From the NCBI GenBank assembly GCA_964106915.2, contig OZ066915.1: a DNA stretch of 64,000 bases, one strand, 5' to 3'. Shown here piece by piece: positions 17,763 through 49,986 of the stretch. The position numbers and the translations under genes were made by a program. A model generated the notes under the pieces. That model did no database searches. It saw only the letters and a program-made list of their open reading frames with translations, and was not told the origin of the DNA. Within the stretch, counting starts at the first letter, position 1; every line of letters begins with the position of its first letter. Source of the DNA: Podarcis gaigeae (lineage: Eukaryota).

Positions 17763-17767
<5 letters not shown>

Positions 17768-17819: not shown

Positions 17820-17821
<2 letters not shown>

Positions 17822-24526: not shown

Positions 24527-24608
24527 TCATCCATCCAACCAACCAACCAACCAACAACCAACCAACCAACCAACCAACCAACCAACCAACCAACCAACAA
24601 CAAACCAA
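24527..24608. repeat. (CCAA)n tetranucleotide repeat, imperfect
   Basis: Direct reading. Confidence 0.95.
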
Positions 24609-27884: not shown

Positions 27885-28560
27885 GCGGAATGAATAACTG
27901 AATAGGCATGTTTGGGGCAAGGTGAAGTATTAAGTAAACTGGTCTCAAGCCATTAAAGGCTTTATATACCAATGGTAAAACTTGGCCTGGTAGCAAATGG
28001 GCAGCCAGTGAGCACAGGTATAACATGCTGACAGATGCTCACTAGTATCAGTAATTACTTTGCAGAATTTGCAGTAACTGGAAGCTCCACATGGAGTCCA
28101 TTGCAACCTACCAATGCCTGAATTACTGTAGTTAAGCTATCCCAGTTCAGGAATTATCACAGATGTCATACCAGCTGAAAAATGTGCTTCTAGTCATTGA
28201 GGCCACTAGGGCCTCTAGTGGCAAATATGGATCCAACAGCACCTAGATTGTGTACCTGCTCCTTCACAGGGAATGCAACACCATCCAGAGCAAGCAACTG
28301 GCCAATTCCATTAACACAAGGACCACTCATCCTTACAGTCTCTGTATTTCCAGCATTCAAGCTCAGTATATTTTCCCTCACTGACGCACCACTGCATCCA
28401 GGCCTTGGTCAAGCTTCTGCATGTCTTCTCCTTATTCAGATGTCAAGGAGAAATTGAGCAAATGTCTGATCCCAATGGCTACATGTAGATGTTAAACAGC
28501 ATTGGGGACAAAATAATGCCCTACGGCACCCCATGGCATAACTACTGAAGATCAGAAAGG
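27885..28560 (-). mobile_element. Degraded L2-type LINE ORF2 fragment
   Basis: ORF 28190..28381 (LSLNAGNTETV...LALDGVAFPVKEQVHNLG) resembles the L2 post-RT region LKLNPDKTE...LDGVxLPLKDQVRSLG; ORF 27835..28026 has PLVYKAFNGLRPVYL. Confidence 0.7.
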
Positions 28561-28652
28561 GACTCTCTGAATCCAGCCCACTAAGTAGGGAATGGGACCA
28601 CTGTAAGACTGTGTCCCCGATAGCCAGACCAGGAAGACATCATCACCAAAAG

Positions 28653-28654
<2 letters not shown>

Positions 28655-28698
<44 letters not shown>
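28655..28698. repeat. (GA)n microsatellite
   Basis: Direct reading. Confidence 0.97.
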
Positions 28699-28702
<4 letters not shown>

Positions 28703-30447
28703 AACGTTGAACTCCCCTTATCACATTCCCAGTAAAGGTCACCTTGCTTAATTGTGTCTTGGCACGGTGTTTGAACTGGGCCTTTGACATGTTGTCACTT
28801 AAAGGGCTTAAACCAGGCAATGTGCTTTAATCACAAAAATGTTTTGTATGAGCCTGTGGAAGTTTGGATGAGGGCCAGATGAAGGTTTAAAGCAGAGGTG
28901 GGCAACCCATGGCTCTCCTGAGCTTGTTGGACTCCCATCAGTTCAAGCCCAAATAGTCAGTGGTCACGAATGATGGGACCTATAGCCCAACAACATCTGG
29001 AGCTCTACAGGGTCCTCATCCTAGTTCTAAATGTATGGGGGGGGGAAAGGGGGGGGAGTTCTAAGGAATATAGCTGCTTGCCAATGTGGAGGTGATTCAT
29101 ATTCCGAATGAAGGTAAGATAAGTGATACTGAAATACTGCAGGATGAGAAGCTTAGGGAAATGAGAACACCCTTGGAGCATCAGAATGAAACACCACAAT
29201 TATTCTGTGTATCTGTGAGATAAATTCCATCCATATAACATAGAGGAATGCAGCTCCCTATCAACACCACTCCGAACTCTTGACTTAAAGATTCTCTTTC
29301 TGTAAATAGCTTATTACCAAGACATATTCAGAGCCAAGGTACTTATGTAACAAGATAAACTGCCCACAGAAAATGTTGTTTCCATGCTAATGTTTTTTCT
29401 CGTCTGCATATCATTTAATACCAAGCATTGTTATATTTACTAATAGCAAGCTCATTCTCCAAGTATGGATCCTTCTGTAGAAAAAAAACCAGCAGGACCC
29501 ACACACCACCCAGGCTAAAAATATATACATTAGTTGGGGGACCCTAGGGAGAGGGAAACACAAAAAGCCCAATATGGATTGAGCATGCTCAGTGATCATG
29601 GAATGCTGACTGACTGCTGGGGCGGCAGTGGTGAGAGGAGAATAGAATAGAGTATCCTGGAATAGAACAGGGGCGAAGGGTGTGTGTGTGTTGCTGGGGC
29701 GCTTTTTCTCAGTGGCGGTGTGAGGTGGACACAACAGCCACGTACCCTTCCAATCAGTCTGATCAGTTTGTTACATGGTTCAGTTTTGCATAGCTGCTCT
29801 TTGTTCAAGAAATAACGGATGAGGAAATGGGGGAGAGCCAGGACCACGGAACAGGGAGTATGCCCATGGTCTCAATTAGACTCAGAGCCAGCTATTCACA
29901 AGGAGCAAAGCTCTAGTCTACCTTGGTCCTGCGTCACTACAAGGCTAAAATATGTGCATATCCCATGCCCACAGACAAACCCAGATATATGTGTTGGCAG
30001 TGCACATGGTAGGGATACTGCAGTAATCCATCAGGTTTGATTTCTGATGCAGATATTGCTGTTTTGCTAGTGCACAGACAATTATCCTAACTCTTCTTGT
30101 GTCCAATTCTCCCTGATTTACTTTCTGTCCAGGGAAAATAAAAAATTGGCAGCTACATGCACAAACCCTTGTGTAAGCTATGCAGAGATTGGGCAGGAGG
30201 ACAGAGGCTGAAAGTCCATTAGAATTTGCAAGGCAGTGAACTGCATTGCTCCCCATGGAATGCAAGTTCTTTTCCACTAATGCAACTATTTGGTGCTCAT
30301 GAATGGCTGTAACACACATCAATTTGAGAAACTTTCTTTTCATTGAGGGGAGCAGATGAGGATTCTGCAAAGCTAGATGTTGTTTGAGAAAGCAAAGGAA
30401 ATCCAGAACACTTTACTGACTTTTTGTAGATATCTAATAACGTGGGT

Positions 30448-30794
30448 GGCGCTGTGGGTAAAACCTCAGCGCCTAGGACTTGCCGATTGTCAGGTCGGCG
30501 GTTCGAATCCCCGCGGCAGGGTGCGCTCTCGTTGCTCGGTCCCAGCGCCTACCAACCTAGCAGTTTGAAAGCACCCCCAGGTGCAAGTAGATAAATAGGA
30601 ACCACTTACTAGCAGGAAGGTAAACGGCGTTTCTGTGTGCTGCGCTGGCTCGCCAGATGCAGCTTGTCGCGCTGGCCACGTGACCCGGAAGTGTCTGCGG
30701 ACAGTGTTGGCTCCCGGCCTCTTAAGTGAGATGGGCGCACAAACCTAGAGTCAGACACAACTGGCTCGTATGGGCAGGGGTACCTTTACCTTTT
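30448..30794 (+). mobile_element. Sauria SINE, near full length, with 13-bp target-site duplication
   Basis: tRNA-like head ggcgctgtgggtaaaacc...ggttcgaatccc, core gtgcaagtagataaatagg, tail ggggtacctttaccttt; TAATAACGTGGGT at 30435-30447 and 30795-30807. Confidence 0.92.
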
Positions 30795-32504
30795 TAATAA
30801 CGTGGGTTAGGACTTGATAAAAATATCTAAAGTCTCATTGCATACATAGTTGCACCAACCCCCCCCCCAAAAAAATGTACCAGGACAGGGTACTCTGCTA
30901 TCCAGGCGTGGTGCAAAATGGAAACTGCTGTCCTGCCACTGTTGCCTGCACTGCCCACCCCAATGCCTCTGGTGGTGCTGGCATTGGTGCTGATTTCTGG
31001 AGATATCTCACCGAAAGTCGGTGGCGGGGTGGGCAAGGTATCCTGACTGGCTGCACCTCAGCGGCTTCCACAGCCTGGCCTGACCCTGCTAGCATCGTAA
31101 GCAGACGCAGGATATGTAACCACCATATGCGGTGTGTCATTTAGAACAGCCATCACCACTACACAGAGCATCAATTAACCTAGTCATGCAACACCTGTTG
31201 GCATGCCGTATGTCGGAAATGGGATCATCACCAGAACATCATGCCCAGGGGGTCTCCAATCTTTTGGGGCCCATTTGCAAAAAAAAAACAAAAACCCACA
31301 AGGAGCTATCATGGGCACCACACACACTGCAATCATGCACACACCACCACCACCTTGGCTACAACGGAATGCTTATTTCAGTCATAATTTCAGTGGGAGG
31401 AGGGGACACCGTGGGTGCCAAGGAAGACCTCTGTGGGTGTATGTCCACATGCGCCACTTTGGCGGCCCCTACTATAGCCGATAAAGTTCTATCTATGGCA
31501 CATCATTGATCCCCATCATTGTTCACCCCAAACAGCAGGCACAATTAATAATTTTGGAGTGAAGAGTTCCAGTTATTTCAACAAAGCTTCACTTCTTAAT
31601 ATTTTGAGGTTGTCTGCAGTGTCATCTGGCTTTTAGGGGTTTCTAGGGAAGCTGCAACCAAAGTTTCAAAATTCTGTTCTGTTACTTTGCAGATCTAAAT
31701 GGCAAAAGAATGAAAACGCCACTTAGTTATATCTGGGGATTTTATTAGTTTCTCCGAAATTTAAACTTGCTCCCCTCCCCACCTTCCATCCAACAGTGTG
31801 TTGATAAGAATAGCTGGAATCAGGCAGCCTAAACTGACTCTATTGCCCAGCTCCACCTCTTCCCCTTCCTCCTAAGATGTTTCAATAAAGAACACCAAGT
31901 CCCAAAGAGGATTTTATTCTTATCCCTTTAACATTAACAAAATTGGCCCTGCCACAAAGCAGAGAGATGAACGAGGATGATCAGACAGAAAGCCCCCAGT
32001 GACCCAAATGATTCTGCCCGCTTTGCACCCGGAACTTCCCAGTTATTAAAAAACACTGAAACGCAAACACGGCCTGAAACCATTACCATGGTAACGAAGG
32101 ATTCTGAAGGAAAGATACAAAAGAAGGAAGGGGCGGGTGAGGAGGAATTTCAACTATTCCTAAGGAAATACCAAACAACATTTTACTGACTCATCATTTA
32201 GCGATATTTGATTTTAAAGAAAGAAGTTAACAAGCACCAGAAAGAAACAGATTTCATTTTATGTTACTAGGGCTGACACTGATCCCTGAAAATGCTCATG
32301 ATAAGCTATTTTTTTTAATTATGAAAATATAATTTAAAAAAAAAAACTGTTTATTTTTAATTCAATGGACACACAATACAGTATTTTTTTTAAGAAAGGA
32401 AAAAGGGAAAGACCAAAAAATAAAACAAAAATGCATCATGGACATAGTAGGTGTAAAAAGGAAAAAAGTAACGTAGATATAGATTTTACAATACTGAATA
32501 GACA

Positions 32505-32510
32505 AATACA

Positions 32511-32556
<46 letters not shown>
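32505..32556. repeat. (AC)n microsatellite
   Basis: Direct reading. Confidence 0.95.
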
Positions 32557-32561
<5 letters not shown>

Positions 32562-35139
32562 GTAAAACCTACCATCAATGAAAGAGCATTAGCATATTAT
32601 TGTAAGGGGGAAGGAATAGACAAATGAGGTAAGTCATGGATTAGAAAGGCAAATGAGGAAAATACCAGTGAAAGCTACTTCCAAATGAATTCATACTTTG
32701 CAGGGACAATGTTAAGATGGGGTGATTATTAAGATATGCAAAAAAGGTCCACTAAATATCCACACAGTCCTCAGGCTCTGCAGTTCACTGCAGCACACGC
32801 TGATGTCAAGTTTTTCCATGACAGCAATATGTACAACCTTCTCCTATAAAATTATTTCTATTACAGTTTCAAGTATATAAGAACAAGAAACCAACAACAT
32901 ATACAAAACTCTAAATCTCTTTCCAACATGGAATAGGTATAAGGTCTTGGATAAAGCATGAGGGAGACACAAAAGAATAACTCCTGGTGAACTATTCAAA
33001 AATTGAATTACGGACAGCAAGGAAGCAATGATAATTTGTGAAGGGTTATCCATGGAAATAACAGGACCAGTGATTTACTTTTAGCTAAAAGCGCAAAACA
33101 ACTCTGCCAGAAACAATTCAAGCACTGCTGAGAAAGACCCTCCATTCACACAGAAAACTGCGGTTTTATTTTTTCCAGATGGGTGATTTCTGCCCCCTTC
33201 CTAAATCAGTATGTAGGGTATTTGTTGTAATTTACTTTGCAGAATAAATTTAGAGTTAACCTCATGTCAAAGTCTGGACCAGTAAAGCCCAGACCTTTGA
33301 AAAATGGTAGTCCAACTTCTTTACAGGACTGGGGCTGGATAAAAGGGATTAGTAGGATCCACTTCTAGAAAGGAACAGGTCCAAAAAAGAGGCAATATCA
33401 ATATTTGGGCTGCGGCCATTTGGCAGAGAGGTACCACAAAAACTTCCATTACAGCTGTACAAGCTAAACCTGTTCTAAGGTTAAAAAGAATAGACCTCAA
33501 TCTCCACAACCGTCCATCTGGCATCTTCTGACAGCACTGAGCTTGCTTAATGTTCCCACCTGATTGCAAAGCTACACAGGGGTGCCATAACCCTCTAGGC
33601 TTGTTCTCATCTAAACTCATTAAATCATCCTGATGGAGAGACTGGTGCTTAGTCACTAGGACCTTCTTAAAGCTAATTCCCTGCTACTGTTGCATCTTAT
33701 TTGGTTCTGGCATTAATTTAATCAGCCATTCCTACAATTCAATCAGGCCTGCACGATGACGAAAAGCCATTTCCAACCACTAAGTTGGAGGAAAGTAATC
33801 CTGCATCTCGCTTAGATGTCAGCCCAGGCCACAGATGGTGGTTGGAGCTGTTCAGAGGCTGAGGGAATAAGTCATGCAGCCACTGGGGTGGGGGTGGGAA
33901 CTGTCACTCACTATCTTTTCAAGATCCTGCCTCCAAAAGGGCTTTGCAACTCCAAGCTCTCATTTTGATTTTTGGCTTCAATCTCTCTCCCTCCCTAATT
34001 GGGACAAACAAGGAGCTGAAGCGCTCCAACTCTATTTCCCAATTAAAAAGGCATTCAGACACATAGACACACTAGAAATGATCAACATTTTTATTTTTTC
34101 GTCTTCTTCCATTTTATTTAAGATGCCAGACTTTCTATTGGTATCACTTCCCCTCCAGCCAAGTGATGATATGTCTTCTGAATATCCTTTTTTCTCCTTA
34201 TCACACCCATATGGTTGGTCATTTGCAGTGTGCTTTTGGGTTTTTACAGAGTTCTCAAATGTCTTTGGAGTACAGATTGAAAGTACACTTTCAGCATTTC
34301 TATAGGGTTCTTCTAGTTTAACTTCAGAGAGGGTTCAGACAATCGTCTGCAGAGCAATGGTCATTTGCATAAACTCTTCCCTTCCTTCCATTATAGAAAG
34401 CTCTGCAGGAATTAAAAAATGTGTCTTGCTATTCTTGTAATAGAAGCCACATCCTCAAATATGACTTCCATTGTCTCCTAGCTTCTTCTCTGTAGGATTT
34501 ATACTATTTGGGGTGTGTCTTTCAACAATTTTCAATCTATCTCAGCCTTTAGCAACCTGGTCCCACCCAGCAGTTGTTGGACTACAACTCCCATCATCCT
34601 TAACCATTAGCCATGCTGGCTAGTATTGAAGGAGTCAAAAAATATCTAGAGGGTACCAGGTCACAGAAGGCTGAGCTATCTGACTGAATCCATAACTTTT
34701 CTGGTTGGTTCTCCTTTTTTCTTTTTTACAGAATCAGTTGCAAATGACATTCACGATAATTAATTTTGGAAAATAAAAGGCATCTTCACTGGGCTTTTTC
34801 TTTGGTGTCTTCTGGGATCTTTCACTCCCCGCCACCCGCCCTCAGCATCCTGCTAAGAATACCACTTCCTAAACTGTTGACATGTGTGTTTTCAGAACAG
34901 TCTGCTCTGTGTGAAAATAAAAGCTTCCCTAAGGCTCAGCCCTGGACCTCTTTCTCAGAACCTCTTCAAGGGATGGTCACACTCAAAGTGGGACAAACAA
35001 GTTTCTCCATCAACAGATGGGAATGGAGAGGAGAGAAGGATGGTGCTAAGCTCATGTTGCTCAATACTGGCATCTTGTCACTAAAAGAATTGTAAAAGAA
35101 TTGCTTTTTTATGTATTCATAATCTGAGCCTGTTTTAAA

Positions 35140-35406
35140 GATGATGATGATGATGATAATGAAAATAATAATAATGATGATGACGATGATGATGATGATA
35201 ATAATAATAATAATTTATTTGTACACTGCCCATCTGGCTGGGCTTCCCAACCACTCTGGGCGGCTTCCAAAAAAATATTAAAATACTGTAATACATCAAA
35301 CATTAAAAGCTTCCCTAAACAGGCCTGCCTTCAGATGTCTTCTAAAAGTCTGGTAGTTGTTGTTGTCTTTGACATCTGGTGGGAGGGCGTTCCACAGGGA
35401 GGGCGC
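35140..35406 (-). mobile_element. L2-type LINE 3' end with (AAT/GAT)n tail; second copy of the family at 38384-38555
   Basis: (aat)n then gcccatctggctggg...ccactctgggcggcttcca...gccttcagatgtct, shared with 38384-38555. Confidence 0.7.
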
Positions 35407-37231
35407 CCTGTTTTCCTCCTCTCAGCAATCCCTCATCCTTCTTCAGGAAAGCTGAGACCAGTTCCAGGTGGTTTTGAGTGAGACTTCCTTTATTAAAGAT
35501 TTCCTTCTTTCGGTCTGAGAATCAGCAGGCTTACCCACAACATGGCCGCACTAGAACGCACCCAGGTCTTCTCATTGCCTTGCTTTCCTACAAGATAATG
35601 CAGGCTAGAGTGGCTCTTTAAAGCAAGGCTACAGAGCAGGGGTGGGGGAATGTGCGGCATCTCCCCCTGACCACTGACCAAGCTGGCTGAAGCAGATGGA
35701 AATTTGATTTCCAGTGTATCCATAACATCTGGAGGACACTGGGCTGGCCACCCCTGCTGTATCAAAGCATTCATTACATAAGTAAATATGCTTCTCTTCT
35801 CAAATCTTAGTACAGGAGCCTTCAATGGTTCACATTCTGGACCGCCAGTATTGTTCTGAGCCTATATTATAAAATGTGCTTTCTGCAGGCCAGCACAAAA
35901 GCTGAAGTTGACACTTTCTATCTTACCTGGGTTGGTAAGAGCATGCCACAGAATCTCTTTGGCAATAACTTGCTCACTCAGTACAGCAACCCAGTCCATT
36001 TATTTAAACCCTGTTTATTTTGACCTGCTGAACACTGAAAATCTTTTTTCTTTCTTTCACCATCTGCCAAAAATATTTTGCTAGGGCAAAATCTATTAGA
36101 TGCTCCGTGTCTGGATTTGTAGAACGAGAGGCTCCAGGGCTCATATAGGAAGCCATTCCTACCGATGCAGAAGCTCTGCCTCCTAATGCCAAATGTATGT
36201 AGCTGCCTGGGACAACTTGGGTTGGTGGTGAAAGCAATGGATTCTAGACATGCTGAAAGCCAGGGTCAATCGCCCTCATTGTTGCAAACATCCTGGAGGA
36301 AACACTGCCTCTGTCACAAAGGAGTAGGTCTGAAATCAAGCTCTGAACTGCATATCAGTGTGCCACAGCTAACGTTGGGCCAGTGCCTTTGGCCTTTGTT
36401 TAAATGGATACCTCATTCTGCAGAAGCAGAGATCCACATTTGAGTGGCCCAGTCAATGCAGACTCTGATTTTCACCTTGGCTCCCAGGAAAGCATATTTG
36501 GATGCCCTTCTCCAAAACTTCATCAAAAGTGCACAGCAATGTATTCTGTTGCTAGAAGGCAGATGGAACAGCACACAACTGGATATGACGGGTGGCATGC
36601 TCCATCCCTCCAGGGCCTTCTCCGCACCACAACAGCTCTTGTAGCATAAATTTGAGCCTTAATTCATGATTTTTTTACTGAGACTTCAGGAATAATATTA
36701 CCCTAGCAATATAACAAAAATGGCAACCAATGCAGACCTATCCCCATAGACCTGGAAGGAGCGTAAGCTTCTTTAATGTCATTGGTTTCTGGTTAATCTA
36801 AACTATATTTCAAACTTAGCTCTCCTTTTCTTACTGTGTATCTCCTGCTGAAACCGGTTTGGAAATACAGGTAAAGCTTCCTCTAATGCTGACTGCTTTC
36901 TACATCGGAAATGCCTGGAGTCAGCAAGAAACAGCGAGGCTCTATCATGCATGTGTGTGAGATACAGAGGGATGGGTGCTTTTAAAGTTCTGTTCCATCA
37001 TGCTATTTTTCTCTCTGGAAGGGATCAATGGGATGCTGGTGGCATACTGTGTATGTAGCTCTGTTGAACAAGGCAGGGGGTGGGGTGGGGTGGAGGGCAG
37101 GAGGGGAAAAGATGACAGCACAAAGTGCTTTCAAAGGAGGATCACACAAAGCCAGCTTCTCAGCTGCATCACCTGCAACAGCACCACTAAGACCTGGTAA
37201 AGAAAAGGAGATGGAGGCTTGTTTTTAAGCA

Positions 37232-37586
37232 GTAAAGGTAAAGGTACCCCTGCCCGTACAGGCCAGTCTTGACAGACTCTGGGGTTGTGCGCCCATCTCA
37301 CTCAAGAGGCCAGGGGCCAGCGCTGTCCGGAGACACTTCCGGGTCACGTGGCCAGTGTGACATCGCTGCTCTGGCGAGCCAGAGCCGCACACGGAAACGC
37401 CGTTTACCTTCCCGCTGGTAAGCGGTCCCTATTTATCTACTTGCACCCGGAGGTGCTTTCGAACTGCTAGGTTGGCAGGCGCTGGGACCGAGCAGCGGGA
37501 GCACACCCCGCCGCAGGGATTCGAACCGCCGACCTTTCGATCGGCAAGTCCTAGGCGCTGAGGCTTTAACCCACAGCGCCACCTGC
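37232..37586 (-). mobile_element. Sauria SINE, near full length, opposite orientation to the 30448 copy
   Basis: Begins gtaaaggtaaaggtacccc (reverse complement of the tail), contains cctatttatctacttgcac and gggattcgaacc (B box), ends cccacagcgccacc. Confidence 0.92.
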
Positions 37587-38172
37587 AACCTGCATCCTAA
37601 ACAGAGGTGTGAAGTTGAAAAACAGGCAAACAGGTTCTTGTATACTTTCCCTCACCAGAATGCATGTCTACACTGAAAGCGACCTCATCTGTTTATGGCA
37701 TAATATTGGATAGCTGCATTTGGTTTTTTGATGAGAGATGTACCGTATATTGTTTGCATCCTCTTTGAACCATGCCTCAAGCTCCCTGCCCCCAGCTGGT
37801 TTTGGCGGCAGTGAGATTTAGGGCAACTGGGCTGTCCCTCTGGAGATGCATAACCATAGATTCTAATCCATCATGCTTTTAAATTCTACCAATGTAGCCT
37901 GGCATCAGTGGCAAACCCCATATGCTGCCAGCGCAATATCACATGCACCTAAGATGTCTCAAATTAGCACTGACTTGCTGTCAAGTTTTATGAACGGCAG
38001 AGGCAACCAAGCCTTCCTCTCGTAGGAACTCGGTGTGCAAAGGGAATAACACAAGACGCAAGGGGAATTATATGAGAAGAATGAAAAGCACAGACACCAG
38101 AAAAACAAAGTAGTCTGTAAGAAAACCATATGCCTAAGGAGCTTCATGGAAAATGTAAGAGCAGATATTATT

Positions 38173-38315
38173 TGAGACGGATAGCTCAGTTGTGTAGAGA
38201 GCTGATAAAACCAAGGTTGCAGGTTGGATCCCCCATATGAGACAGCTACATATTCCTGCACTGCAAAGGGTTGGACTCGATGATTCTCAGGGTCCCTTCC
38301 AACTATATGATTCTG
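38173..38315 (+). mobile_element. tRNA-derived SINE with CR1-type 3' tail
   Basis: A box tagctcagttg, B box-like ggttggatccc, then attcctgcactgc...gggtcccttccaact matching the CR1 tails in this window. Confidence 0.75.
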
Positions 38316-38384
38316 AGTCTATAACCCTCTGTCTAACAAATGCCTTCCAAGCCAGGCTCGTGGCTTGTGAAAGCCAAGCCCATA

Positions 38385-38426
<42 letters not shown>

Positions 38427-38607
38427 TAATTATATTTGCCTTCCATCTGACTGGGTTGCCCCAGCCACTCTAGGTGGTTCCCAACAAAATACTAAAAACA
38501 CAGTAAAACATCAACCATTAAAAACTTCCCTGTACAGGGCTACCTTCAGATGTCTGAAGCAGAGGTTTCATAAGCCCCCAAATTGTTCTGCAACTTGGAG
38601 TGGCATT

Positions 38608-38612
38608 GCGCG

Positions 38613-38694
<82 letters not shown>
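38608..38694. repeat. Compound microsatellite (GC)n-(CT)n-(GT)n
   Basis: Direct reading. Confidence 0.95.
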
Positions 38695-38696
<2 letters not shown>

Positions 38697-40007
38697 TGGG
38701 GAGAAAAATTTGATCAGGGAGTGGGTGTTAGCTACTCCTGACTTAGAGGCTAAATGGTGCAATTTGAGCTAGTCAATTACCATTTTGTTCTTGATTCTAA
38801 TAGCCAGTTCTAGGAGTTTTAGAAAAGTACTGGGAGGCAAAATAAGCATATATAAATGATAGTGGAAAAATTACTGTATCAGACATCACCAGTTACTACT
38901 GGTGTGTATTATCATACAATGTCTTACATGTGAATTTGCTAAACAAAGCTCTGACTCCAACCACTCCCCACCCCAACTGTATAGCAAATTCTTCAATAGA
39001 AGTTCCTAATCCCTTTGTAAAAGCCCAAACCAAGACTTCTTTGACCAGGAAGCCCCCTTACCTAAACAAGGTTGAAACTTGCTTATTTTAAATATGGGTG
39101 TCCACTGATTTCTTTGCCATTACAGTATATGCATTCTTTATATCTCTTATTTCTTTATATCTTACACACCAGAACCATATCCACTAATTTTGGCTTTGTG
39201 TTGACATGCTCTCATTAGAGTCTTATTAAGCTAATTACTCCCAATACAAAACAGGAAGTACATTTTGAAAATCAGCTATCATGATGATGAATCATTCCAA
39301 CAGCTACCATTAACATTGATTTAATTCCATTAGGGTTCCAGCAGCAAATCTTTAATAAGAATAACTCCTGTTTAAACAGCAAGTAAATTGAGTGTTGGTA
39401 ATACAAAATCTATAGAGCACTGTGTTCCCTTCTCCCCCATATCAGTCTAATTTATTCAGCTGTTCTTGCTCAGGGGTTTAAATGGATAATTCACACAAGC
39501 TCTTTGGTAGGTAAAGAGAAAATGCAGGAATAGATGGGGAGGTGACAAAAATGATGCCAGACTTTTGATCACTTGGCAAAAGAATGCTGGCACATAGCAG
39601 GAAAGGTGGCAGTAAACTCACATGCAGCAAAATGGGATTCATGCGCCAAGCCATAAATGGGAATGCATCATTATTTAAAGATGGGGCTTTATGGTAGGCT
39701 CATTCCTGCAAAATAGGCAGAAGATAAATGCATAGAGAAAACAAGAAGAAGATAGTTTGAAGCCAGCAGGAGGATCATAGAATCGTATGCTTCATAGTTG
39801 CACAGACCAGTGAGCAAACCCAAGTTAAACATTTAAAAGTGGTTAGGGAAGCTCATCGGATCAACTCAGGTCTATCTTTCAATTGCTCCCTCCTTCAATA
39901 TAGCAAGGAATGGGGAAATGGGGAATGTCCATTTTGATCTTTCTTGGTTTCTCATTTATAAAATCTTAAAGTCAGTTTTCTGAGTTTTCACATCAGTTTG
40001 CATTTAA

Positions 40008-40458
40008 AATAATAATAATAAATTTTATTTATATCCCGCCCTCCCCGGCCGAAGCCGGGCTCAGGGCGGCTAAAAACACTAAAACAGTACAACATTATAA
40101 AAACATTATAAAAAGTAATTAAAATCAAAATTGATGGCAACCATAAACTAAAGTTTTGTAAAGATTGCCAAAGGAGGGAGTCAGGCTGCGCCCTGACCAA
40201 AGGCCAGGTGGAACAGCTCTGTCTTGCAGGCCCTGCGGAAAGATGTCAAGTCCTGCAGGGCCCTTGTCTCTTGTGACAGAGCGTTCCACCAGGTTGGAGC
40301 CGCAGCTGAAAAAGCCCTGGCTCTAGTTGAGGCCAGCCTAACCTCTCAGTGGCCTGGGACCTTCAAGGTGTTTTTAAGACCGTAAGTTCCTCTGTGGGGC
40401 ATACCAGGAGAGGCGGTCCCGTAGGTACGAGACCGCCTCTCCTGGTATGCCCCACAGA
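40008..40458 (-). mobile_element. 5'-truncated L2-type LINE (3' end with (AAT)n tail) ending in a fold-back palindrome, apparently nested in an older element (~39905-40807)
   Basis: aataataat...tttatatcccgccctcc...gagcgttccacc...gaaaaagccctg...gagaggcggtccc is typical of L2 3' regions; CpGs retained; palindrome at 40391-40458. Confidence 0.7.
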
Positions 40459-42032
40459 TAAATAAAATAAATAAATAAAAGTCCTCATGAAAGTTCATGA
40501 TTTTAGTACAAATCTCTCCTAATCCTTTTGTATGCAATTTCCCCTAATACATGTCTTGCAAAGCCTATTTTCTTAATTTAATGCATTTTTTATGTTAATT
40601 GCAATAATATATGAATTTTTATGCAGTTTACCTTAGTACATGCATTTCTGTACACATTACTCGGTTGGAGAAGTGCATTGCAAAATTCACCAAAGTGTGA
40701 CTTTCAAGAGAATGTCAATGTTTCAGTTTGCATAGTGTTTTGGAATGTGCAAATTAGGTAGGTTCACCTTTAAATGAGAAATAAATTTACTTTCTCTCCT
40801 GTCCCTACATCTAAGACTTTGGGACATCCTCATTAGCAGCCCATGGATCGCCATCTCAAAACTCACTACTACTTGACTTCTGACGCTATTAGAGTAAGCT
40901 GAAAACACTCAAATGAGGCTTATTCAACAGCATGTTTGCGAGAATTTTTGGGGAAAAGGGGGGTTTCCTTTAAAAAGCTTAACAATTTTGAGGTCTTCTT
41001 AATAAAAGCTCAACAACTTTTGGGGTGTCCTGGTTATTACATTTTGGAATATGGCAAACCTATTTAAATCCCACAATCATGGAAGATCTGCAGTATTTGT
41101 TGATTCACAAATCCTCATGCACAATCTCCACCTGAAACTCTGGGCCATCCTTCACAATGGCATAGCACCACATGGCTCCAGAGAATTTGATGTGTTTACA
41201 AGTAGCCGAGATTAGTGATACCAGAAAGTGAATCCTTCCTACTCTGAGTCATGTACCATACAAGCATCTGCTTCAGAACCATTAGGGTTTAGAAACCATC
41301 ATAAAGATGAAAAATGCACACAGGGCATTTAGCTCACAGCTTTTGCTAATCTTTGATATATACACTGATTTCTTTAAAATTAATACATGTCTTGCTTAGC
41401 GAGGTGGGCTGAGCAAAAACGGATAAGGGCCCTGCATGGAGTATAACCAGAGTTGCACAGAAAGCAACACTCTTGACTTTTCCCTGTCCTCAAAATACTT
41501 GCTGTTGTGAAAACAACTCAAGATGGCACCTGCCCCTTTTGTACCTGATTTCCATGAGCAAGCAATAATTGTAAAAGAAAACCCACCTACTGCGAAAAGA
41601 GCCATATTGCGCTCAGTGGTGATATTGCACATCATCACTAATGACAATCCTTGAATCCAAGCACATTGACTAGAGTGGATCCAGGCAGGAGCAGACACAA
41701 ATATATACTAAAAATAGTACCTGCACGCCCACACACGAAACCACTGACCCCCAACAACCTGACACGAAAGCACAACTATGTCCAGAAAATCCAGAATGAA
41801 TATCCACAGCAAGGGACAGAGAACGGGTGAGCTGCAGAATCCCACATTCAGTCAGCAGCATTTTAATGACGCAGTCAGCAAAAGAGAACAAAATAACACT
41901 ACTATAAATTACCACTCTGTTATTATTGTAAGTGACAGCATAATCAATGAAAAGACAACGTGTGGCCAAAATACTTGTTTGTAATTTTTTAAAAAGTGCT
42001 TATTCATAGTGGGGAGGAAATAAATACAGTGT

Positions 42033-42135
42033 GAATTGTAGAACTGTAGTTGGAAGGGACCCACTGCAACATAGGAATCGAACTCACAACACTGCGATTA
42101 AGAGTCTCCTGCTCTACCAACTGAGCTATGGCCCA
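42033..42135 (-). mobile_element. tRNA-Lys(CTT)-derived SINE with CR1-type tail
   Basis: Reverse complement gggccatagctcagttggtagagcaggagactcttaatcgcagtgttgtgagttcgattcc resembles tRNA-Lys-CTT, then gggtcccttccaactacagttcta (CR1 tail). Confidence 0.8.
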
Positions 42136-44094
42136 TTGGGGGGGTGGGGGTGTCCTCACATAGCACAGTGACCTTGATTTGACTTTCAAAGTTCTGAAAT
42201 GGAGAAATACTACCACATCTGAACCCTGTTCTTCTGCCTCCTGGTTTCCAGTCAGAGCCAATTCATAGAACCCTTGGTGTGTCATAAGGGACATGAGGGC
42301 CAGGTGGAAGCATATTGTAGTTGTGTCCCAGTCAAAGCAGCCGTTTAATTCCCTTGCCACTTGCCCACAATATCGTTCTGAATGCCTGAGGAAGGGCAGG
42401 GAAAACTATGACTTGTCATCAGCTGGACCGTCTCCACCCACAGAAACTTGTTTTTATGTTTTGATCACCATCTGAAGTCCTGCTCAGTGTTGCTCTGCTT
42501 TTCTTTGGGCCACATCAGCAAGGCCGTGTGTGTGTGTGTGTGTGTGGGCTATTGTTGTCTGGAAGGGCACTTCGGTGCTGCTAATACAGCGTTTTGACTT
42601 CACCACTGGAGGTGCACTCCACTGAGACAGATGTTATCCTCCAAACTGCTGGACTCCAAACTTCCATCAGTCCCATCCAGTACAGTCAATAATTTACAGT
42701 CTCTATCCCTTTCTAAAGTGAAAGAAGTTGAAACTAGTTTAGCTTTCACCTCCTCTTCCTGTAAAGGAACACAGCAGACCCAGTATCATCTTGCTTAGGA
42801 TGGGTAAATGAAAGAACAAAGGCACCGTAAGCTCTGGGATCACTCTGTCCCAGCCCCCTGCGAATTATCGCATGTTTCCCTCAGATGAAGAGGTCCTTCT
42901 TTTCTTTAATTAGCTGTTGGCTCCACAGGAGGTAGAGAAGCAAACAAAATCACAAATCGGAGGAAAAAAGACTAGATCAAGGAAGTGAACCAGTAAGTTA
43001 GTGATACTTGCTACAGTCCTAGCACCTTAATCCACACTTCTTCACAAATGAATACTGCGCCAAAAGGATACATTTCTACAAGGAACTATCCTGCATTTGC
43101 CCGTAGACCTTTTAGTTTCCGATCCTTTCTGCAGGCACATTTTCCTTACATACCGTGGCACAGATGGGTGATATTTTCATGCTGCAATGGTTATTGGGTT
43201 TTAATGTTACTTAGTGACAACTTTACAACATTTGTACAGTCACCTGTTCAAGCCCCCTGCTGTTTGATGCACTAAGGATTAAGCTTTAAAACTCTTAAAT
43301 GAGCTTTAAAAGTGCCTGAAAAGGTTACACTGGTATTTTGCAAACTGAGTGTGCACATTAGCTACTTTTTTGAGAGGTTCTTCCTTTGTAGACTTTTTTT
43401 TTTAAGAATGTCCTCCTATTGAATTACTTCCTTTTCTAAGCTTTCAAACAATTGCGTACCAGTAGTTTTATCACAGCAGGCCAGTCTACAGCTCCTGCCA
43501 CAACCACAGATTTTTGTTTCATTTGCTCTCCCCCCTCCCATCTTTCAGGCTTGACTATCTCTGGGAACTTTTTGACTTAGACGCAGCTAAACACCTGGCT
43601 GCATAATTCTTATGTTCCTGCTGCCTTTGTTCCTATGGACCTACGGTGATCTCATACACATATTTAACATTCCAGCCTTGGCTGACTTTGTGCTGCCAAC
43701 ACCACAGTGAGAGAGGTAATGAATGAATTAGAAGCAAAAGCCTCAATGGATGGAAATTAATATCCAGATACTTGTTAGAGGAAACCAGTGCTGTGCCTTC
43801 TTTCAACTGAAGCAAGAAGAAACTGCATGATGCGTTTAGAGTCAGTGTGTGCCTTGGCAAGAGGGAAACCAAAGAAAGGATCCCAATGGATCAGCTTCAT
43901 TGGAAATGTTAATTGCTCTATACTGCATTGCATTGTAGCTTGTATTCTAGGGCTGCCATATGTCTAGACATTACCAGGATTACAAAGGTGGAAATTGACA
44001 TTGGGGGGAATTTCCGAAAGTTCAGATTCCCCACATTCAAACCATGGTTGCTCTCATTCCCCCAATGATCATAGGCTGTTCCTTCAGGACCCTA

Positions 44095-44194
44095 GTCAAA
44101 ACAAAAAAAATTCCTTCCAGTAGCACCTTAAAGACCAACTAAGTCAGTTCTTGGTATGAGCTTTCGTGTGCATGCACACTTCTTCAGATACACA
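44095..44194 (-). mobile_element. 100-bp Penelope-like element fragment with 14-bp flanking duplication
   Basis: gtagcaccttaaagaccaac...agctttcgtg...cacttcttcagat is the Penelope-like terminal motif as recalled; CCTTCAGGACCCTA at 44081-44094 and 44195-44208. Confidence 0.8.
44154..44191 (-). ncRNA. Minimal type I hammerhead ribozyme motif (Penelope-type)
   Basis: Minus strand GUAU-CUGAAGA-A-GUGUG(CAUG)CACAC-GAAA-GC-UC^AUAC: stem I GUAU/AUAC, core CUGANGA and GAAA, stem II, palindromic AGCU in place of stem III, UH cleavage site. Confidence 0.7.
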
Positions 44195-44555
44195 CCTTCA
44201 GGACCCTAATTATCTCTTTGCTTGGTTATTTATGATTAAATAGGAAGAGACTTGTTTCTTTGCTGCTTTTACAGTTGTTTGCTATAACCACTCAGCCTGC
44301 CCTCATGGGATCTTTGCTATGCAATCAATAATGTTTCAGCTAATTCTTAGGCTACTACAGAAGACTAACTTTTGCTCTGGCTGTGATAATTGTGTCTTCA
44401 GATCAACTGATTTCCAGCATGTTGGGGGTGGTGGTCTTCTGCTCATAATAATTGGTGGGGGTCTAGTTCCTTAATCTCTAAGGGTAGCAAAGCAGTTGAA
44501 CATGATGTGAACTAATGTGACAGCACTGGGATAACAGTGATACTAATTTTATGTA

Positions 44556-44780
44556 CAGTGGTACCTCGGGTTACGTACGCTTCAGATTACATACGCTTCA
44601 GGTTACAGACACCGCTAACCCAGAAATAGTACCTTGGGTTAAGAACTTTGCTTCAGGATGAGAACAGAAATCGTGCTCTGGCGGTGCAGCGGCAGCAGGA
44701 GGCCCCATTAGCTAAAGTGGTGCTTCAGGTTAAGAACGGATCTCCGGAACAAATTAAGTACTTAACCCGAGGTACCACTG
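44556..44780. mobile_element. Tc1/mariner-superfamily (pogo/Tigger-like) MITE, 225 bp
   Basis: 23-bp TIRs cagtggtacctcgggttacgtac / gtacttaacccgaggtaccactg (1 mismatch), TA on both sides. Confidence 0.92.
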
Positions 44781-45477
44781 TACTAGATGATGTACAGTGT
44801 ACCATTAATCTTCACAGAATGGGCTTGGCACTGCAGTTGTATCCATTCACATCTCCTCCTGCTAGCATGGCCCTTAAAAATTTTCAGTATGTTACAACCC
44901 CATTTTTTAAAACAGACTGTAAATCTGATATGTGAGGGATGTGTGCCATTTATTTCTATTAATAACAAAGCTTCCAGTTTCTCATTATTATGGAAACCTG
45001 GTTAAGGGTGACATATATGATGCTTTAAGCAATTATGACAGCTCCTTCTTTCCAAAGAATAGCTGGTTTTCCTTAAAATGAATGTGCTGAGATTTCTGCT
45101 TTTAATTTTTTAAAGTATGATGTTCATGAGAATGACTCATTAGGAACACATATTCAGAAATAATGGGCAAAACTTCCCAGAGCTGTTAAGTCCAATTTTG
45201 TTTTAACATAGAGAAAGAATTGGTTATCATGAGCATTTAATGGGGACTCTAAACTTTACACTGCTCTCTTTCTCTCTTTGTTCTTGTGAAAGAGTTTGAA
45301 GGAGGAACTAGTGTCAGAGTCCCTTAACCCAAGCGTGATTACAGGGTGACCTCATCCAAAGAAGTTGGGAGTGGGGAATCCTGCTCCTACTTACAGGGCC
45401 ATATCTAGAGAGCAGCACTGGGTGGCTATACTTAGCCGCCCTGGCACTAGCTGTAATCTTGTCCCCAATGCTCTTTA

Positions 45478-46240
45478 AGCCATTAGGAATGGCCATCGCA
45501 GGATTTGGAGCACTGTGTCATCAGTATAGTGATGATATCCAGCTCCATTTCTCTATTAGCATATCCTGGACTAGTCTCTGGATGAAGTGGTAGGTTGGAG
45601 GAGGCAAAATAAACAGGAGACTGAATCCTGAAAAGACAGAAGTCCGGTGGTGGGTGGCTCCTGGGTCTGGGAATTTCATAGCTGCCCGCCCTCCATTTGA
45701 AGGAGGAAGTGCGCAGCTTGGGGTGTGGGTATGTGTGTGCACCCCTGAGGATGTTCTTAGATCTACCTTTCTCACTGGAGGCCCAAGTGGGTACAGCAAC
45801 TACTTTTGGCTGGTTCTCCAGCTACAAATGTGTCTGGCCAGGGAGAGCCTCACCCCTTTGACTCATGCATAGGGAAACTTAAGGCTGGATGACTGTAATA
45901 CACTATCTGTGGGGCTGGCCTTACAGCTAGTGCAGAATGTTGCAGCTAGATTGCTTCCTGGAGACCTTTTCATGCACATGTTAACATCTCTCTTACATTT
46001 GTTGCTATACTAGCTCCCAATATGCTGCTAAAGCTCTCAAGATCTCGAGAGCAGGCTATTTTAAGGAAAATCTTCTCCCACATCATCTGACACCATCACT
46101 GAGGTCAGCTAGAGGCCTGCATGGCTGTGCTGCTGCCTTGAAAGGTTCATCTTGCAATTACCAGGGATATGGCCTTTTCCATTGTGACACTATCTCTGTG
46201 GAACCATCTCCCCTCTAGGTTATGGCAGGCACCCACATTA
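45478..46240 (+). mobile_element. Degraded L2-type LINE RT/3' fragment
   Basis: catcagtatagtgatgatatccagctc encodes HQYSDDIQL (decayed YADD motif); ctgaatcctgaaaagacagaa encodes LNPEKTE; L2-like 3' region ggccttttcc...tggaac. Confidence 0.75.
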
Positions 46241-46980
46241 ATCCCTGCTGCTTATGGAGATTCAGGGGGGTTGGTTAATTTCTAACTTTTTCCCTAGTTC
46301 CAGGAATTTAGGGGAGTCTTGCTCCCCCTCCAAACTTATAACAATATCAACATTTCTGATACCAAATTATTCCACTTCATAGAACTGACAAAGCCAGGGT
46401 TCAGTGTGTATGGAAATACTTGTGTTCTATATTAGGCAAAACAGCCTCATATAAAAACTAATAAAGTCAATTGCTCATAAGGTCCTTCATTTCTTTTTAA
46501 ACAACCTATCCATGCAGATACATTTGGTGACATTGATTTGTTTGTTCTTAAGGGTTTTTTTTTGGGGGGGGGAAAGGTCACATTCACCATTTATAATCTC
46601 AGCAGAAGGGCCAGAGCTATCAATTCTCAGCTCTAATTCCCTATCTCATAACTGTCAGATTATGAAACTGCAAACTGTAAGCCTCAGGAGTTTACAGAAA
46701 AACATCTCCTTATTCTCTCCTGCCGCTTTAATCAGATGAATTAATAAAAGCAGGATTCAACATTTGCTATTCACTCCAATATTGAGGGGAGCGGGAGTGG
46801 AGGGAAATAGGACATTGGAATCTCTAATCTTTTCTTAAAAAGAAAAGAAAAAGAAGATAGCACACTGAAACTCACTGAGTACTCACTTACCAATCACCTT
46901 TCTACCCCAGTCCCAGGTTTTTCCAACTATGACATCTTTTAAGCCTCTCTGAGTGCATCACATAATTACATTCTGTCCAT

Positions 46981-47522
46981 AAGGCAACAGTCCTACTCTA
47001 TTTTGCCTTGACCACAACTGGAATACTGTGTCCAATTCTGGGCACCACAATTTTAGAAGGATGTAGCCAAGCTGGAACGTGTGCAGATGAGGGCAAGGTG
47101 ATCAAGGGTCTGGAAACCAAGCCTTATGAGGAGCGCTTGGATGAGCTGGGTATGTTTAGCCTGGAAAAGAGGAGACTGAGAGAAGGTATGATAGCCATCT
47201 TCAAAATATCCTAAAGGCTGTCACATGGAAGAGGGAGCAGGCTTGTTTTCTCCTGACCTGGAGGGTAGGACGTGAACCAATGGCTTCAAGTTACAAGAAA
47301 GGAGATTCCGACTAAACACACAGAAAAGCTTTCTGGCAGTAAGAGCTGTCTGACAGTGGAACAGTCTCCCTTGGGAGGTTGTAGACTCTCCTTCCTTGGA
47401 GGCTTTTAAGCAGCTGTTGGATGGCTATCTGAGAGGGATGCTTTAGCTGAGATTCCTGCATTGCAGGGAGTTGGACTTGATGACCCTTGAGTCCCTTACA
47501 ACTCTACGGTTCTATGATTCTA
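46981..47522 (+). mobile_element. CR1 LINE 3' fragment (ORF2 C-terminus and 3' UTR)
   Basis: ORF 47008..47214 contains [35 protein letters not shown] (CR1 ORF2 C-terminus); ends ttctatgattcta. Confidence 0.93.
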
Positions 47523-49986
47523 TATTCCTAGGGACACTGGTGCTACAGGTTCTACTGCCTAGCAGACCCACCTCTCTCTCTTATCAACTGCAACCTTTCC
47601 CCAGCCTGGTATGCTGAAAATGCTGTTGGATTCCAACTCCCAACAACCCTTCCCAGCATGACCAATGTCAGTTGAGCAGTGAGGGTTGCAGTCCAACAAC
47701 ATCAGGAGGACCACATGCTCCCCACCCTTTCCTGGTGGCAAACTCTTTCCCATGGGTGTTCCCAAAGATAGTTTATTTTTTAATCACCATGAGAAAAGCA
47801 CAGCAAGCAACATGATTGCTTCTCTTGCATGCCCTTGGTGGGTTTTCTGTTATGGTAAGAGGGGTAATGGGAAGGGCAGAGGAACTGCTAAGGTTGTCTC
47901 CCCATCACAGGAAGCAATACCTGAATTAGACAGAGATGACATTTCCCTCTGTGATTCAAACTATCAAAAATGAAGAATGTGAACTTTGCATCAACTTTTC
48001 TAGTTTCCCCTCCAGACTCCAAAGGAATGATCCACTTGGTACTATTATTAAAAGAATAACGAATTTCAAAAGCAATCCATCAATCCTTATTTCAGCTATG
48101 GAGACAAATTTTGAGTAAGGTCAAGAAAGGAAGGTCAAACAGCATGTGACAGATCCTAAGAGGACCTAAGTGTGCCTTTCCATTTAAGGCATAACGAAAA
48201 CAAAGGTTAATCAGCCACATTGCATTAAGATTTCAGAAAACATGCTTGCTTGAAAGGACACATTTAGCACACCAAAGGGGCCTCAGCCACTATAATGTAC
48301 AACCACTGATGCATTAATACACCAGGATGGCACTAGGATCTACAATTATACCTGCAGAATTTGGTTTGCAGCTACTATTCTGACACAGGGAGCTACAAAA
48401 TGAGAAGTAAAGCAACTGCATTAAACAGTAAGCGACTATGCCAATAGGGAAGGGGGAGCTAGAAAAGAAGAAAAATGAGCACATCTGAAGGACAGCTTGT
48501 TTAATAGGTTCAATTATGTTCAGTACGTTCAATGCAACTTGTTTCCAAGGGGCAGAGTAATCCTAACCAAGGTGTGCCTGATCAGCGTAGCCACTGCTGC
48601 ATTTGCAACCCCACTGCTTATGCTGGCTGAGGCATAAGATAGTAGCAGAGGAAACTCTGCTCAGTGCGAGAAGAGTCTGGAGCAGGTGCAGTGATCGGTC
48701 CCAATGCTGGATTGGGTGGAATGTCGTCAAGTGTCAGCCGTGTACCCAGCTCAGGATACATTGGATTCCAGGCCAGCAAAACCATTCCTCCTCTCCTGAA
48801 TGCTCTGTTGGGGGGCTTTCCTTGGATTACTGCTGATGAGAATATAACCTACAGGAACTCCACCTGCCCATGCTTTCTTTAGGTGGGACAGAGAGCTCCA
48901 TATGGGAGGAGTGACACTGACATCACTAGGGGTGGAGCTCTTTATGAAGATGCCACCAGGTCGGTGATGTCTCTAACCACCTTATGAGACTTTATTCCTT
49001 TTTTATATTATGTTGAAAAACATATTTAAAATTTTCCATGACCTCTGAAATTAAATGGAATGACAAGAATTTAGGACTCTGTATGGGAAGTGGGGGACAA
49101 AGTCAACCTGATGTTTCAGGGGGAAAGTTGGGTTTCACAGAACTAGAAGCCAAAGTATTTGATCGACCCTTTGACACTGAACAACACTGACACAGACCTA
49201 TGGGAACTGGAGTAGGTCTTAAATCAGCAACTGTACATAACAACCATGTACCACATGCCAGTAAGGGAATGTAATCAGTGCTGGCATTTTTAGTTTGGTC
49301 ACATCAACTGTGCACCAAAGCAGACACATTTCTAAATAAAGGGCACCCCACAATATGACTGACTGGAGCAAAATCATGTTTAAGTATTAGAATACACCAT
49401 AACCCAAATTGTATGGGGAAGCCTGCATTAAAAAACACAAAACACCACCAAGCATGCAATTACAGTACTTATTTCACGAAACAGCTTGCATATTTCATGA
49501 CATGTTGTTTGCAAGTTAGCTATTATAAAATCAAATGTAAATGATTTATTGAGGTAAGCAAATAGTCTTGTGGCGTTTGGAGAATTACTGTGAAAATGCA
49601 AAAAAAGAAAGAGAGAGAGCAAAGCATTGTAAAGACGGCTTCACTTGCTTACATCCTTAGACCAACAAGTGTCACTGAACTCTATTCACCAGTGTGCAGT
49701 TCTCCACACTAAGTAGCACAACCAGAAGTGCTCCCCCAAGATCTGCAGCTTTGTTGCCCTTGCAGAGCTTCAGAGCTTCATTTAACAACAGACCAGAACA
49801 AACACAGCTAAACAGAGCAAGGCATGAAAGTAAGAGGTCAGCATGAATCGATGCTGTGTGGTACGAAATCCCACTCAAGGGGCTAAGAGCAGAACCAGGA
49901 TGGAGCTAATGAGGCCACCATTTGGGGTGCCTTGGCTGCAGGGAGAGTCTAACTATAACTACTAAAGTACAGAGGGCTCTGCTTAC

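What the first reader, a model, noticed from the sequence alone, without database searches (positions are those of the whole stretch)
44081..44208. Sense-strand minimal hammerhead ribozyme in a 100-bp Penelope-derived insertion inside CACNA1G intron 9
Seen: a 100-bp insert (44095-44194) bracketed by an exact 14-bp duplication CCTTCAGGACCCTA. On the minus strand, the strand transcribed as CACNA1G pre-mRNA, it reads GUAU CUGAAGA A GUGUG CAUG CACAC GAAA GC UC^AUAC. All core nucleotides are present, stems I and II pair, and the predicted cut lies between 44158 and 44157. Known: Penelope-like retroelements carry minimal type I hammerheads in which stem III is replaced by a short palindrome (here AGCU) and which cleave mainly as dimers. 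Inference: the insert begins only about 3 nt upstream of stem I, so it is essentially a ribozyme-only mobile unit. If active, it could cut the nascent 34-kb intron co-transcriptionally. I found no second copy in the window, so monomer activity may be low.
Basis: partly seen in the sequence, partly recalled or inferred. Interest (0 to 1): 0.7.

Follow-up and report, generated by a model that had tools for sequence, protein, structure and literature searches.

The report
Penelope start-to-tail stub in CACNA1G
This 100-base insert in a calcium-channel intron is real and recent, but it is one of about ten thousand copies of a jumping gene's ribozyme-bearing end, likely made by copying just the first 100 letters of the element's uncut RNA, and on its own it probably does not cut the channel's RNA.

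Summary
The 100-bp insert, the 14-bp duplication, the minimal hammerhead and its sense orientation in a 34.5-kb CACNA1G intron are all there. Contigs of two related organisms show the empty site with one 14-mer, so the duplication is a true target-site duplication. The insert is not special: its 37-nt core has 9,816 exact genomic copies and is the terminal repeat (pLTR) of a young RT + GIY-YIG Penelope-like element of Neptune type. Copies end at two sites about 35 nt apart (the PLE tail) and pile up at a 5' start 1-4 nt before stem I, 30 nt behind a TATA-like box, often with an extra G, and not at the cut site. Best reading: reverse transcription starts internally and runs off the capped, uncleaved RNA end, leaving a dead stub. 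Cleavage of the host pre-mRNA is unlikely: no helix III, stem I rarely predicted in context, nearest sense partner 70 kb away; this was not tested. Earlier AI notes of this scan reached the same start-to-tail reading in other genomes. Template-jump dimers seen here may show how vertebrate retrozymes arise.

The parts
44195..44208 (.). Target-site duplication, copy on the element's 5' side (14 nt)
   Evidence: single copy at the empty site in X4 and X8
44081..44094 (.). Target-site duplication, copy on the element's 3' side; its TA at 44093-44094 also matches the element's continuation (2-nt microhomology)
44095..44194 (-). 100-nt stub of the pLTR of a Neptune-type Penelope-like element, from the inferred transcript start (44193, with one extra T at 44194) to the proximal 3' end site
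44154..44191 (-). Minimal type I hammerhead: 4-bp stem I, CUGAAGA core, bulged A, 5-bp stem II, GAAA, AGCU palindrome instead of helix III; predicted cut between 44158 and 44157
44166..44179 (-). Stem II; the whole 14 nt is a perfect palindrome (hairpin -4.1, intermolecular duplex -25.2 kcal/mol)
44095..44153 (-). pLTR leader downstream of the cut site, ending in the U-rich tract at the proximal end site (+90 to +98); the 35-nt tail to +130 is absent in this copy
15458..49986 (-). Host intron of CACNA1G (34.5 kb); the insert lies about 5.8 kb after the donor, in sense orientation

Best explanation
The insert is a recent, TSD-flanked 100-nt copy of the hammerhead-bearing terminal repeat of a high-copy Penelope-like retrotransposon, likely made when the element's reverse transcriptase started inside its RNA at the tail site and ran off the capped, uncut 5' end, and it is probably an inert stub in the CACNA1G intron. 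Steps. Shown: identity with the pLTR of an RT + GIY-YIG element, copy number, true TSD, two preferred 3' ends, one preferred 5' start just before stem I, no pile-up at the cut site. Inferred: a TATA-like box at -30 and an Inr-like TCAGT start transcription 1-4 nt before stem I; the endonuclease makes a staggered cut (9-16 nt); target-primed reverse transcription starts about 95 or 130 nt into the RNA, as shown in vitro for the anole Poseidon element; the cDNA ends at the RNA 5' end and is joined to the target (solo stub, this case), copied on the other strand (inverted pair) or jumps to a new template (tandem). Inferred: lacking helix III, a nearby partner and the element's protein, the motif cleaves the host pre-mRNA little or not at all.
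For: 9,816 exact copies of the 37-nt core, control 0; 18,700 of a 28-nt anchor. Upstream of longer copies lies a GIY-YIG domain at the end of an 813-aa frame with RVT_1 and a CX4CxxC linker. The window's 101 nt are found letter for letter in 35 fetched loci (some are the same place fetched twice), including long-ORF copies. 3' ends of 101 copies: 45 at +86..98 and 42 at +126..134, the two-site tail of PMC11167929. 5' ends: 40 of the 78 that lie in -35..+45 fall in -7..+3 (binomial p 2.5e-15), 2 at the cut site. Only 2,903 of the 9,816 cores continue 8 nt upstream; 1,679 have the window's TGTG start. Before a start at -1, G occurs 1,606 times against at most 880 for A plus C, as a copied cap would give. 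TATA-like box 30 nt before the A of TCAGT. 18 of 20 loci that run into the ORF start (17 of 19 distinct insertions) are joined to a new unit beginning at -4..-1. Of 85 insertions of the window's class 26 are solo and 19 of those have a 9-16 nt TSD, chance 1 of 300. Empty site in two related organisms. Against cleavage: P(stem I) 0.06 or less in five contexts beyond the bare core, the stem I + II fold 2.6-4.6 kcal/mol above the minimum, AGCU duplex -3.9 kcal/mol; a single S. mansoni min-HHR gave no cleavage and dimers little (PMC4209133); the anole HHR cut only with protein, and unprocessed RNA was the template (PMC11167929); 1 of 9 Xenopus dimers cleaved (10.64898/2026.07.22.740005).
Against: No transcript start was mapped; TATA and Inr are motif resemblances, and the D. 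virilis Penelope promoter is TATA-less (PMC2377424 abstract). Starts are spread over -4 to 0 and the extra T of the window's class is unexplained. 4 of 20 inspected extra-G junctions take their G from the inverted arm. 33 of 101 copies start downstream of +3, 24 of them with an inverted partner, so ordinary truncation also occurs. Internal initiation was shown for a Poseidon element, not a Neptune one. PMC3846280 argues for self-priming on an antisense template for inverted copies. The samples come from the start of one contig. Folding energies ignore tertiary contacts and proteins, the bare 38-nt core folds stem I well (P about 0.7), and no cleavage assay exists for this sequence.
Confidence: 0.8

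Rival explanations
1. The motif cleaves nascent CACNA1G pre-mRNA to a measurable extent, helped by the element's protein, by a partner RNA in trans, or by the second sense copy in the same gene, and so lowers or reshapes channel mRNA as the Cpeb3 ribozyme does.
For: Core intact and in sense; stems show compensatory changes against an older family, 3 of 10 pairs in 5 sequences; a second intact sense copy lies in the same gene; 28.7 kb of intron follow, which leaves minutes before splicing (inference); protein-assisted cleavage is known (PMC11167929); intronic ribozymes can act on mRNA maturation (PMC10919898, abstract).
Against: No helix III; stem I competed out in predicted folds; the partner is 70.3 kb downstream, beyond the end of this intron; the copy is identical to the youngest family members and absent in two relatives, so there is no sign of selection; compensatory changes speak to function in the element, not at this locus.
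Confidence: 0.1
2. The stub belongs to a separate non-autonomous family (a SINE-like or retrozyme-like unit) that spreads from its own transcripts or circles.
For: Thousands of short copies share a start; tandem dimers and trimers of about 160-200 nt exist, close to the 176-bp reptile retrozyme average (10.64898/2026.07.22.740005); trimers repeat one junction within a locus.
Against: No sequence of its own: the stub is identical to the autonomous pLTR; the TATA-like box is missing; short and long copies share both 3' ends; tandem junctions differ from locus to locus; 2 of 85 insertions of this class are tandem; ends do not sit at the cut site.
Confidence: 0.06
3. The shared 5' end is a truncation hotspot or a splice acceptor (TTTCAG|TG), not a transcript start: reverse transcription from the 3' pLTR of full-length RNA stalls or re-primes at the hammerhead fold.
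For: The sequence at -2 fits a 3' splice site, and in D. virilis an intron ends at helix I (PMC4209133); many junctions reuse letters of the hammerhead itself.
Against: No common upstream exon among short copies; stalling at a stem would stop the cDNA 3' of it, not just past its 5' edge (inference); excess G before the start; new units in tandems begin at the same place.
Confidence: 0.04

Closest known systems
Minimal hammerheads in pLTRs of metazoan PLEs (Cervera and De la Pena 2014, PMC4209133; parts 1-2 of 4 read, one of the supplements searched)
   Same: 4-bp helix I, bulged nucleotide before helix II, G10.1-C11.1, palindromic short helix III, mostly dispersed single copies in thousands, predicted dimer requirement
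   Different: This family was not found in the text or the supplement searched (file 1 not searchable); here the ends, TSDs and an empty site of the single copies are mapped
Poseidon_Ac of Anolis carolinensis (Frangieh et al. 2024, PMC11167929; parts 1-2 of 4 read)
   Same: Two 3' ends about 35 nt apart (tail), uncleaved RNA as template, hammerhead in the pLTR
   Different: Neptune-type linker here; the hammerhead lies before the first ORF codons instead of overlapping the start codon; the paper's parts read do not describe start-to-tail stubs
EN+ PLE insertions with pLTR, tail and TSD (Arkhipova 2013, PMC3846280; Craig 2021, PMC8557442; passages read)
   Same: Direct and inverted pLTRs, optional 30-40 bp tail, 8-10 bp TSDs, TATA plus Inr-like motifs in the pLTR
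   Different: Solo pLTRs there lacked TSDs and were put down to recombination; here 19 of 26 solo stubs have TSDs and start at one point inside the pLTR
Animal non-LTR retrozymes (Cervera 2020, PMC7229834, passages; Li 2026, 10.64898/2026.07.22.740005, parts 1-3 of 5)
   Same: Short pLTR-related units with type I hammerheads; monomers are dispersed and 42-44% of Xenopus copies lie in introns
   Different: The window copy is a monomer with a minimal, not canonical, hammerhead; no circle shown
Intronic ribozymes of RECK, C10orf118 and CPEB3 (PMC6765202 and PMC10761166, passages; PMC10919898, abstract)
   Same: Sense ribozyme motif in a long intron of a vertebrate gene
   Different: Those are conserved, isolated and shown to cleave; this one is lineage-specific, one of thousands, and untested

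Membership tests
EN+ Penelope-like element (parent family) | Single ORF with RT and C-terminal GIY-YIG | tested here: met
   813-aa frame in L141 with RVT_1 and GIY-YIG above Pfam cut-offs
EN+ Penelope-like element (parent family) | pLTR with hammerhead, direct or inverted, and optional 30-40 nt tail | tested here: met
EN+ Penelope-like element (parent family) | Target-site duplication on insertion | tested here: met
   empty site; 19 of 26 solo copies
Neptune clade | CX2-5CxxC linker between RT and EN (shared with Nematis) | tested here: met
   CX4CxxC in the L141 protein; definition from PMC8557442
Neptune clade | RT phylogeny groups with Neptune, not Nematis | not tested
   no reference sequences in hand; no tree built
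Minimal type I hammerhead | Core CUGANGA, GAAA, UH | tested here: met
Minimal type I hammerhead | Stems I and II supported by compensatory change | tested here: met
   3 of 10 pairs change on both sides, 92% of cells paired, covariation 2 of 500 shuffles; only 5 related sequences, so weak
Minimal type I hammerhead | Self-cleavage as dimer or with protein | not testable with these tools
   needs an assay
Canonical hammerhead (Rfam) | Match to an Rfam hammerhead model, stable helix III | tested here: not met
   no hammerhead family at E<=10; no helix III
Non-LTR retrozyme | Two or more tandem units each with a hammerhead | tested here: not met
   window copy is a monomer; tandems exist elsewhere in the family
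Non-LTR retrozyme | Expressed as unit-length linear and circular RNA | not testable with these tools
   no raw RNA reads available
Domesticated intronic ribozyme (RECK or CPEB3 type) | Conserved at the orthologous site across species | tested here: not met
   empty in both other organisms laid

The most novel reading that the evidence does not exclude
Penelope-like elements routinely copy only the first 95-130 nt of their capped, uncleaved RNA. The stubs are a genome-wide fossil map of the transcript start and both RT start sites, and template jumps at that capped end build the 160-200 nt head-to-tail hammerhead dimers from which vertebrate non-LTR retrozymes are born, with no ribozyme cut or RNA circle needed for the first step. 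Thousands of sense intronic stubs, two in CACNA1G alone, would then be latent cut sites only where the element's protein or RNA is present.
Probability: 0.5. Interest if true: 0.55.

Novelty: new member of a known kind. Interest (0 to 1): 0.3.

Why it matters
For CACNA1G it most likely does not matter: this is an ordinary young transposon stub. For PLE biology the family is a useful record. How PLEs prime, what the hammerhead is for and where retrozymes come from are open questions; here thousands of young copies point to an uncleaved capped template, two internal RT starts and template jumping, each testable with the family's protein. A filled and an empty allele in related organisms also give a ready pair for asking whether a minimal hammerhead does anything inside a pre-mRNA.

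Tried and rejected
DNA similarity search of the own genome with the insert found nothing because very common words are skipped; pattern searches replaced it. Rfam: no hammerhead match. Unconstrained folding of the insert is no better than shuffles, z 1.07, and is not the hammerhead fold. Cut-site starts: 484 copies have a non-C before the cut-site ATAC; 5 of 30 inspected really begin there, all at inverted junctions, 2 explained by ATAC microhomology; most of the rest are point changes; scaled up, about 0.5% of copies, the same as neighbouring positions. Orientation bias by T-over-A skew of flanks (CACNA1G introns give +0.033 to +0.068): -0.004 +/- 0.006 for 60 single-orientation insertions, +0.002 +/- 0.009 for 26 solos, +0.016 +/- 0.009 for 25 two-orientation controls; underpowered and inconclusive. 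No RNA holder listed for the locus. Contigs of four runs guessed to be RNA from another organism, laid on a pLTR copy, showed no GT..AG joint to the -2 position and higher summed depth from about -8 onward, but contigs cannot show a start or a level, so this is not used. Runs X1 and X2 (organism A) reach 24 nt into the insert at both junctions and list no empty joint, short of the 31-letter bridging rule, and one may be the window's source. One alignment had a copy on the wrong strand and was redone. Lunse et al. 2017 on PLE hammerhead dimers could not be read; only its title was seen. No earlier scan note by sequence or in this genome. Literature searches showed no paper describing start-to-tail stubs or template-jump dimers; subscription journals, Repbase and Dfam were not searchable, and the bioRxiv supplements of Li 2026 could not be seen and may hold this family.

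Full report
Observation. An exact 14-nt direct repeat sits at 44081-44094 and 44195-44208 with 100 nt between. The minus strand carries a minimal type I hammerhead at 44191-44154: 4-bp stem I, CUGAAGA, a bulged A, 5-bp stem II, GAAA, GC, U and C17, with the cut predicted between 44158 and 44157. The motif does not occur in 100 shuffles of the window. No Rfam hammerhead model matches at E<=10, as expected without helix III. The host gene is CACNA1G on the minus strand (50 of 51 residues to human Cav3.1); the intron runs from 49986 to 15458. Contigs of two other organisms (X4, X8) join 44080 to 44195, leaving one 14-mer, so the repeat is a true TSD and the insertion is younger than those splits.

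What it is. Positions below count from the T of TATCTG (window 44190) as 0; the cut is between +32 and +33. The 37-nt core has 9,816 exact copies in the 1.51-Gb assembly, reversed control 0; a 28-nt anchor behind the cut has 18,700. Longer copies continue upstream into a GIY-YIG domain. The protein search gave 5,430 candidates, the 150 scored at 97-100% identity. The longest open frame among them, 813 aa in L141, has RVT_1, a CX4CxxC linker and GIY-YIG: an endonuclease-positive Penelope-like element of Neptune type by motif (PMC8557442, passages); no tree was built. The hammerhead lies in the pLTR, on the coding strand, about 190 nt after the stop codon, and the ORF start follows the tail. The window's 101 nt from -3 to +97 occur letter for letter in 35 fetched loci, some of them duplicates, among them long-ORF copies. 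Three copies of an older family in the same genome keep the core and change both sides of 3 of 10 stem pairs (five sequences, weak), so the fold was under selection in the element's history.

How it was likely made. In 101 copies from the first 4.1 Mb of contig C1, picked by the anchor alone, 3' ends are bimodal: 45 at +86..98 and 42 at +126..134. This is the PLE tail, which in the anole Poseidon element marks two internal RT start sites (PMC11167929, parts 1-2). The window copy ends at the proximal site, with 2 nt of microhomology to the target. Of the 78 5' ends in -35..+45, 40 fall in -7..+3 (p 2.5e-15) and 2 at the cut. Genome-wide only 2,903 of the 9,816 cores continue to -8, and 1,679 begin as the window copy does. 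That point lies 30 nt behind a TATA-like box, at an Inr-like TCAGT; a similar TATA plus Inr pair was noted in rotifer pLTRs (PMC3846280, passages), whereas the D. virilis promoter is TATA-less (PMC2377424, abstract and one section). Before a start at -1 the next letter is G 1,606 times against at most 880 for A plus C, as copying of a cap would give, though 4 of 20 inspected take the G from an inverted arm. Of 164 copies that run into the ORF start, 18 of 20 loci inspected are joined, at varied places early in the ORF, to a new unit that begins at -4..-1, which fits template jumping at a physical RNA end. Copies that truly begin at the cut are rare: 5 of 30 inspected among 484 candidates. Of 85 insertions in the window's class, 57 are inverted pairs, 26 solo and 2 tandem; 19 of the 26 solos have 9-16 nt TSDs, chance 1 of 300. 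So solos like this one should number about 500 in this start class alone (inference). The reading is: internal start at the tail site, run-off at the capped uncut 5' end, a dead stub without the TATA-like box. The transcript start itself is inferred, not mapped.

Does it cut the channel RNA? Not tested; probably little. Helix III is absent and the AGCU duplex is worth -3.9 kcal/mol; in five contexts beyond the bare core stem I has probability 0.06 or less, although the bare core folds it well. A single S. mansoni minimal hammerhead did not cleave and dimers cleaved weakly (PMC4209133, parts 1-2); the anole one cleaved only with protein, and no RNA-seq ends were found at its cut site (PMC11167929); 1 of 9 Xenopus dimers cleaved (10.64898/2026.07.22.740005, parts 1-3). 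There is no partner in the window. In 100 kb fetched on each side there is one more intact sense copy inside CACNA1G, 70.3 kb downstream in a domain III intron, and one antisense copy; the sense partner lies beyond the end of this intron, so a cis dimer is unlikely but not excluded. A test for loss of sense intronic copies by strand skew was inconclusive.

Comparison and novelty. It works like the known PLE pLTR hammerheads and is a member of that kind; it fails the tests for a canonical Rfam hammerhead, for a tandem retrozyme and for a conserved intronic ribozyme of the RECK or CPEB3 type. My searches found no paper that describes start-to-tail stubs or template-jump dimers, within the limits of the library. 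Earlier AI notes of this scan on other genomes give the same start-to-tail reading; I had written it down before looking and they are not independent support. They led me to PMC3846280.

Verdict. Observation confirmed; interpretation partly supported; new member of a known kind; interest 0.3. The locus is ordinary. The value lies in the family-wide end pattern, above all the excess G and the tandem junctions, which make PLE priming and the origin of retrozymes testable.

Noticed in passing
L149-L168 (for example L155, L159, L162/L163): Head-to-tail dimers and trimers of about 160-200 nt join the first ORF codons to a new unit at the inferred transcript start. Junctions differ between loci but repeat within a trimer: candidates for newborn non-LTR retrozymes and natural dimers for a cleavage assay.
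   Followed up: partly
L314:3741-4521 (minus) and L316:1891-1983 (plus), outside the window: Two more family copies inside CACNA1G: a sense copy of about 780 nt with GIY-YIG end, TATA-like box, hammerhead and full tail, and an antisense stub.
   Followed up: partly
window 44166-44179: Stem II is a perfect 14-nt palindrome that could pair two RNAs (-25.2 kcal/mol); it is not a palindrome in the older family (L214, L222, L224), so it may help dimer formation or fold-back junctions in this family only.
   Followed up: partly
window 691-735 (+): Remnant of an older Penelope pLTR family (82% over 45 nt to L222), antisense to the gene, with no hammerhead core left.
   Followed up: no
L163, L183-L185, L191, L295-L296: Micro-tandems of parts of the hammerhead (about 15-75 nt units) at 5' junctions, like repeated re-priming by a telomerase-related RT.
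   Followed up: no
L169-L198, L229-L286: 57 of 85 insertions that share the window's start are head-to-head inverted pairs, often with the short 3' end on one arm and the tailed end on the other.
   Followed up: partly
window about 43940-44060: Part of another dispersed repeat just 3' of the insert (raised contig depth at 43952-44015; short inverted repeats).
   Followed up: no
window about 44555-44780: A different short repeat beginning and ending with CAGTGGTACCTC-like ends (also seen in L103 and L156), probably a non-autonomous DNA transposon; label from recall.
   Followed up: no
window 44250-44363: Run X8 has a contig that skips 114 nt here, next to the empty site; probably an unrelated deletion allele in organism E.
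   Followed up: no
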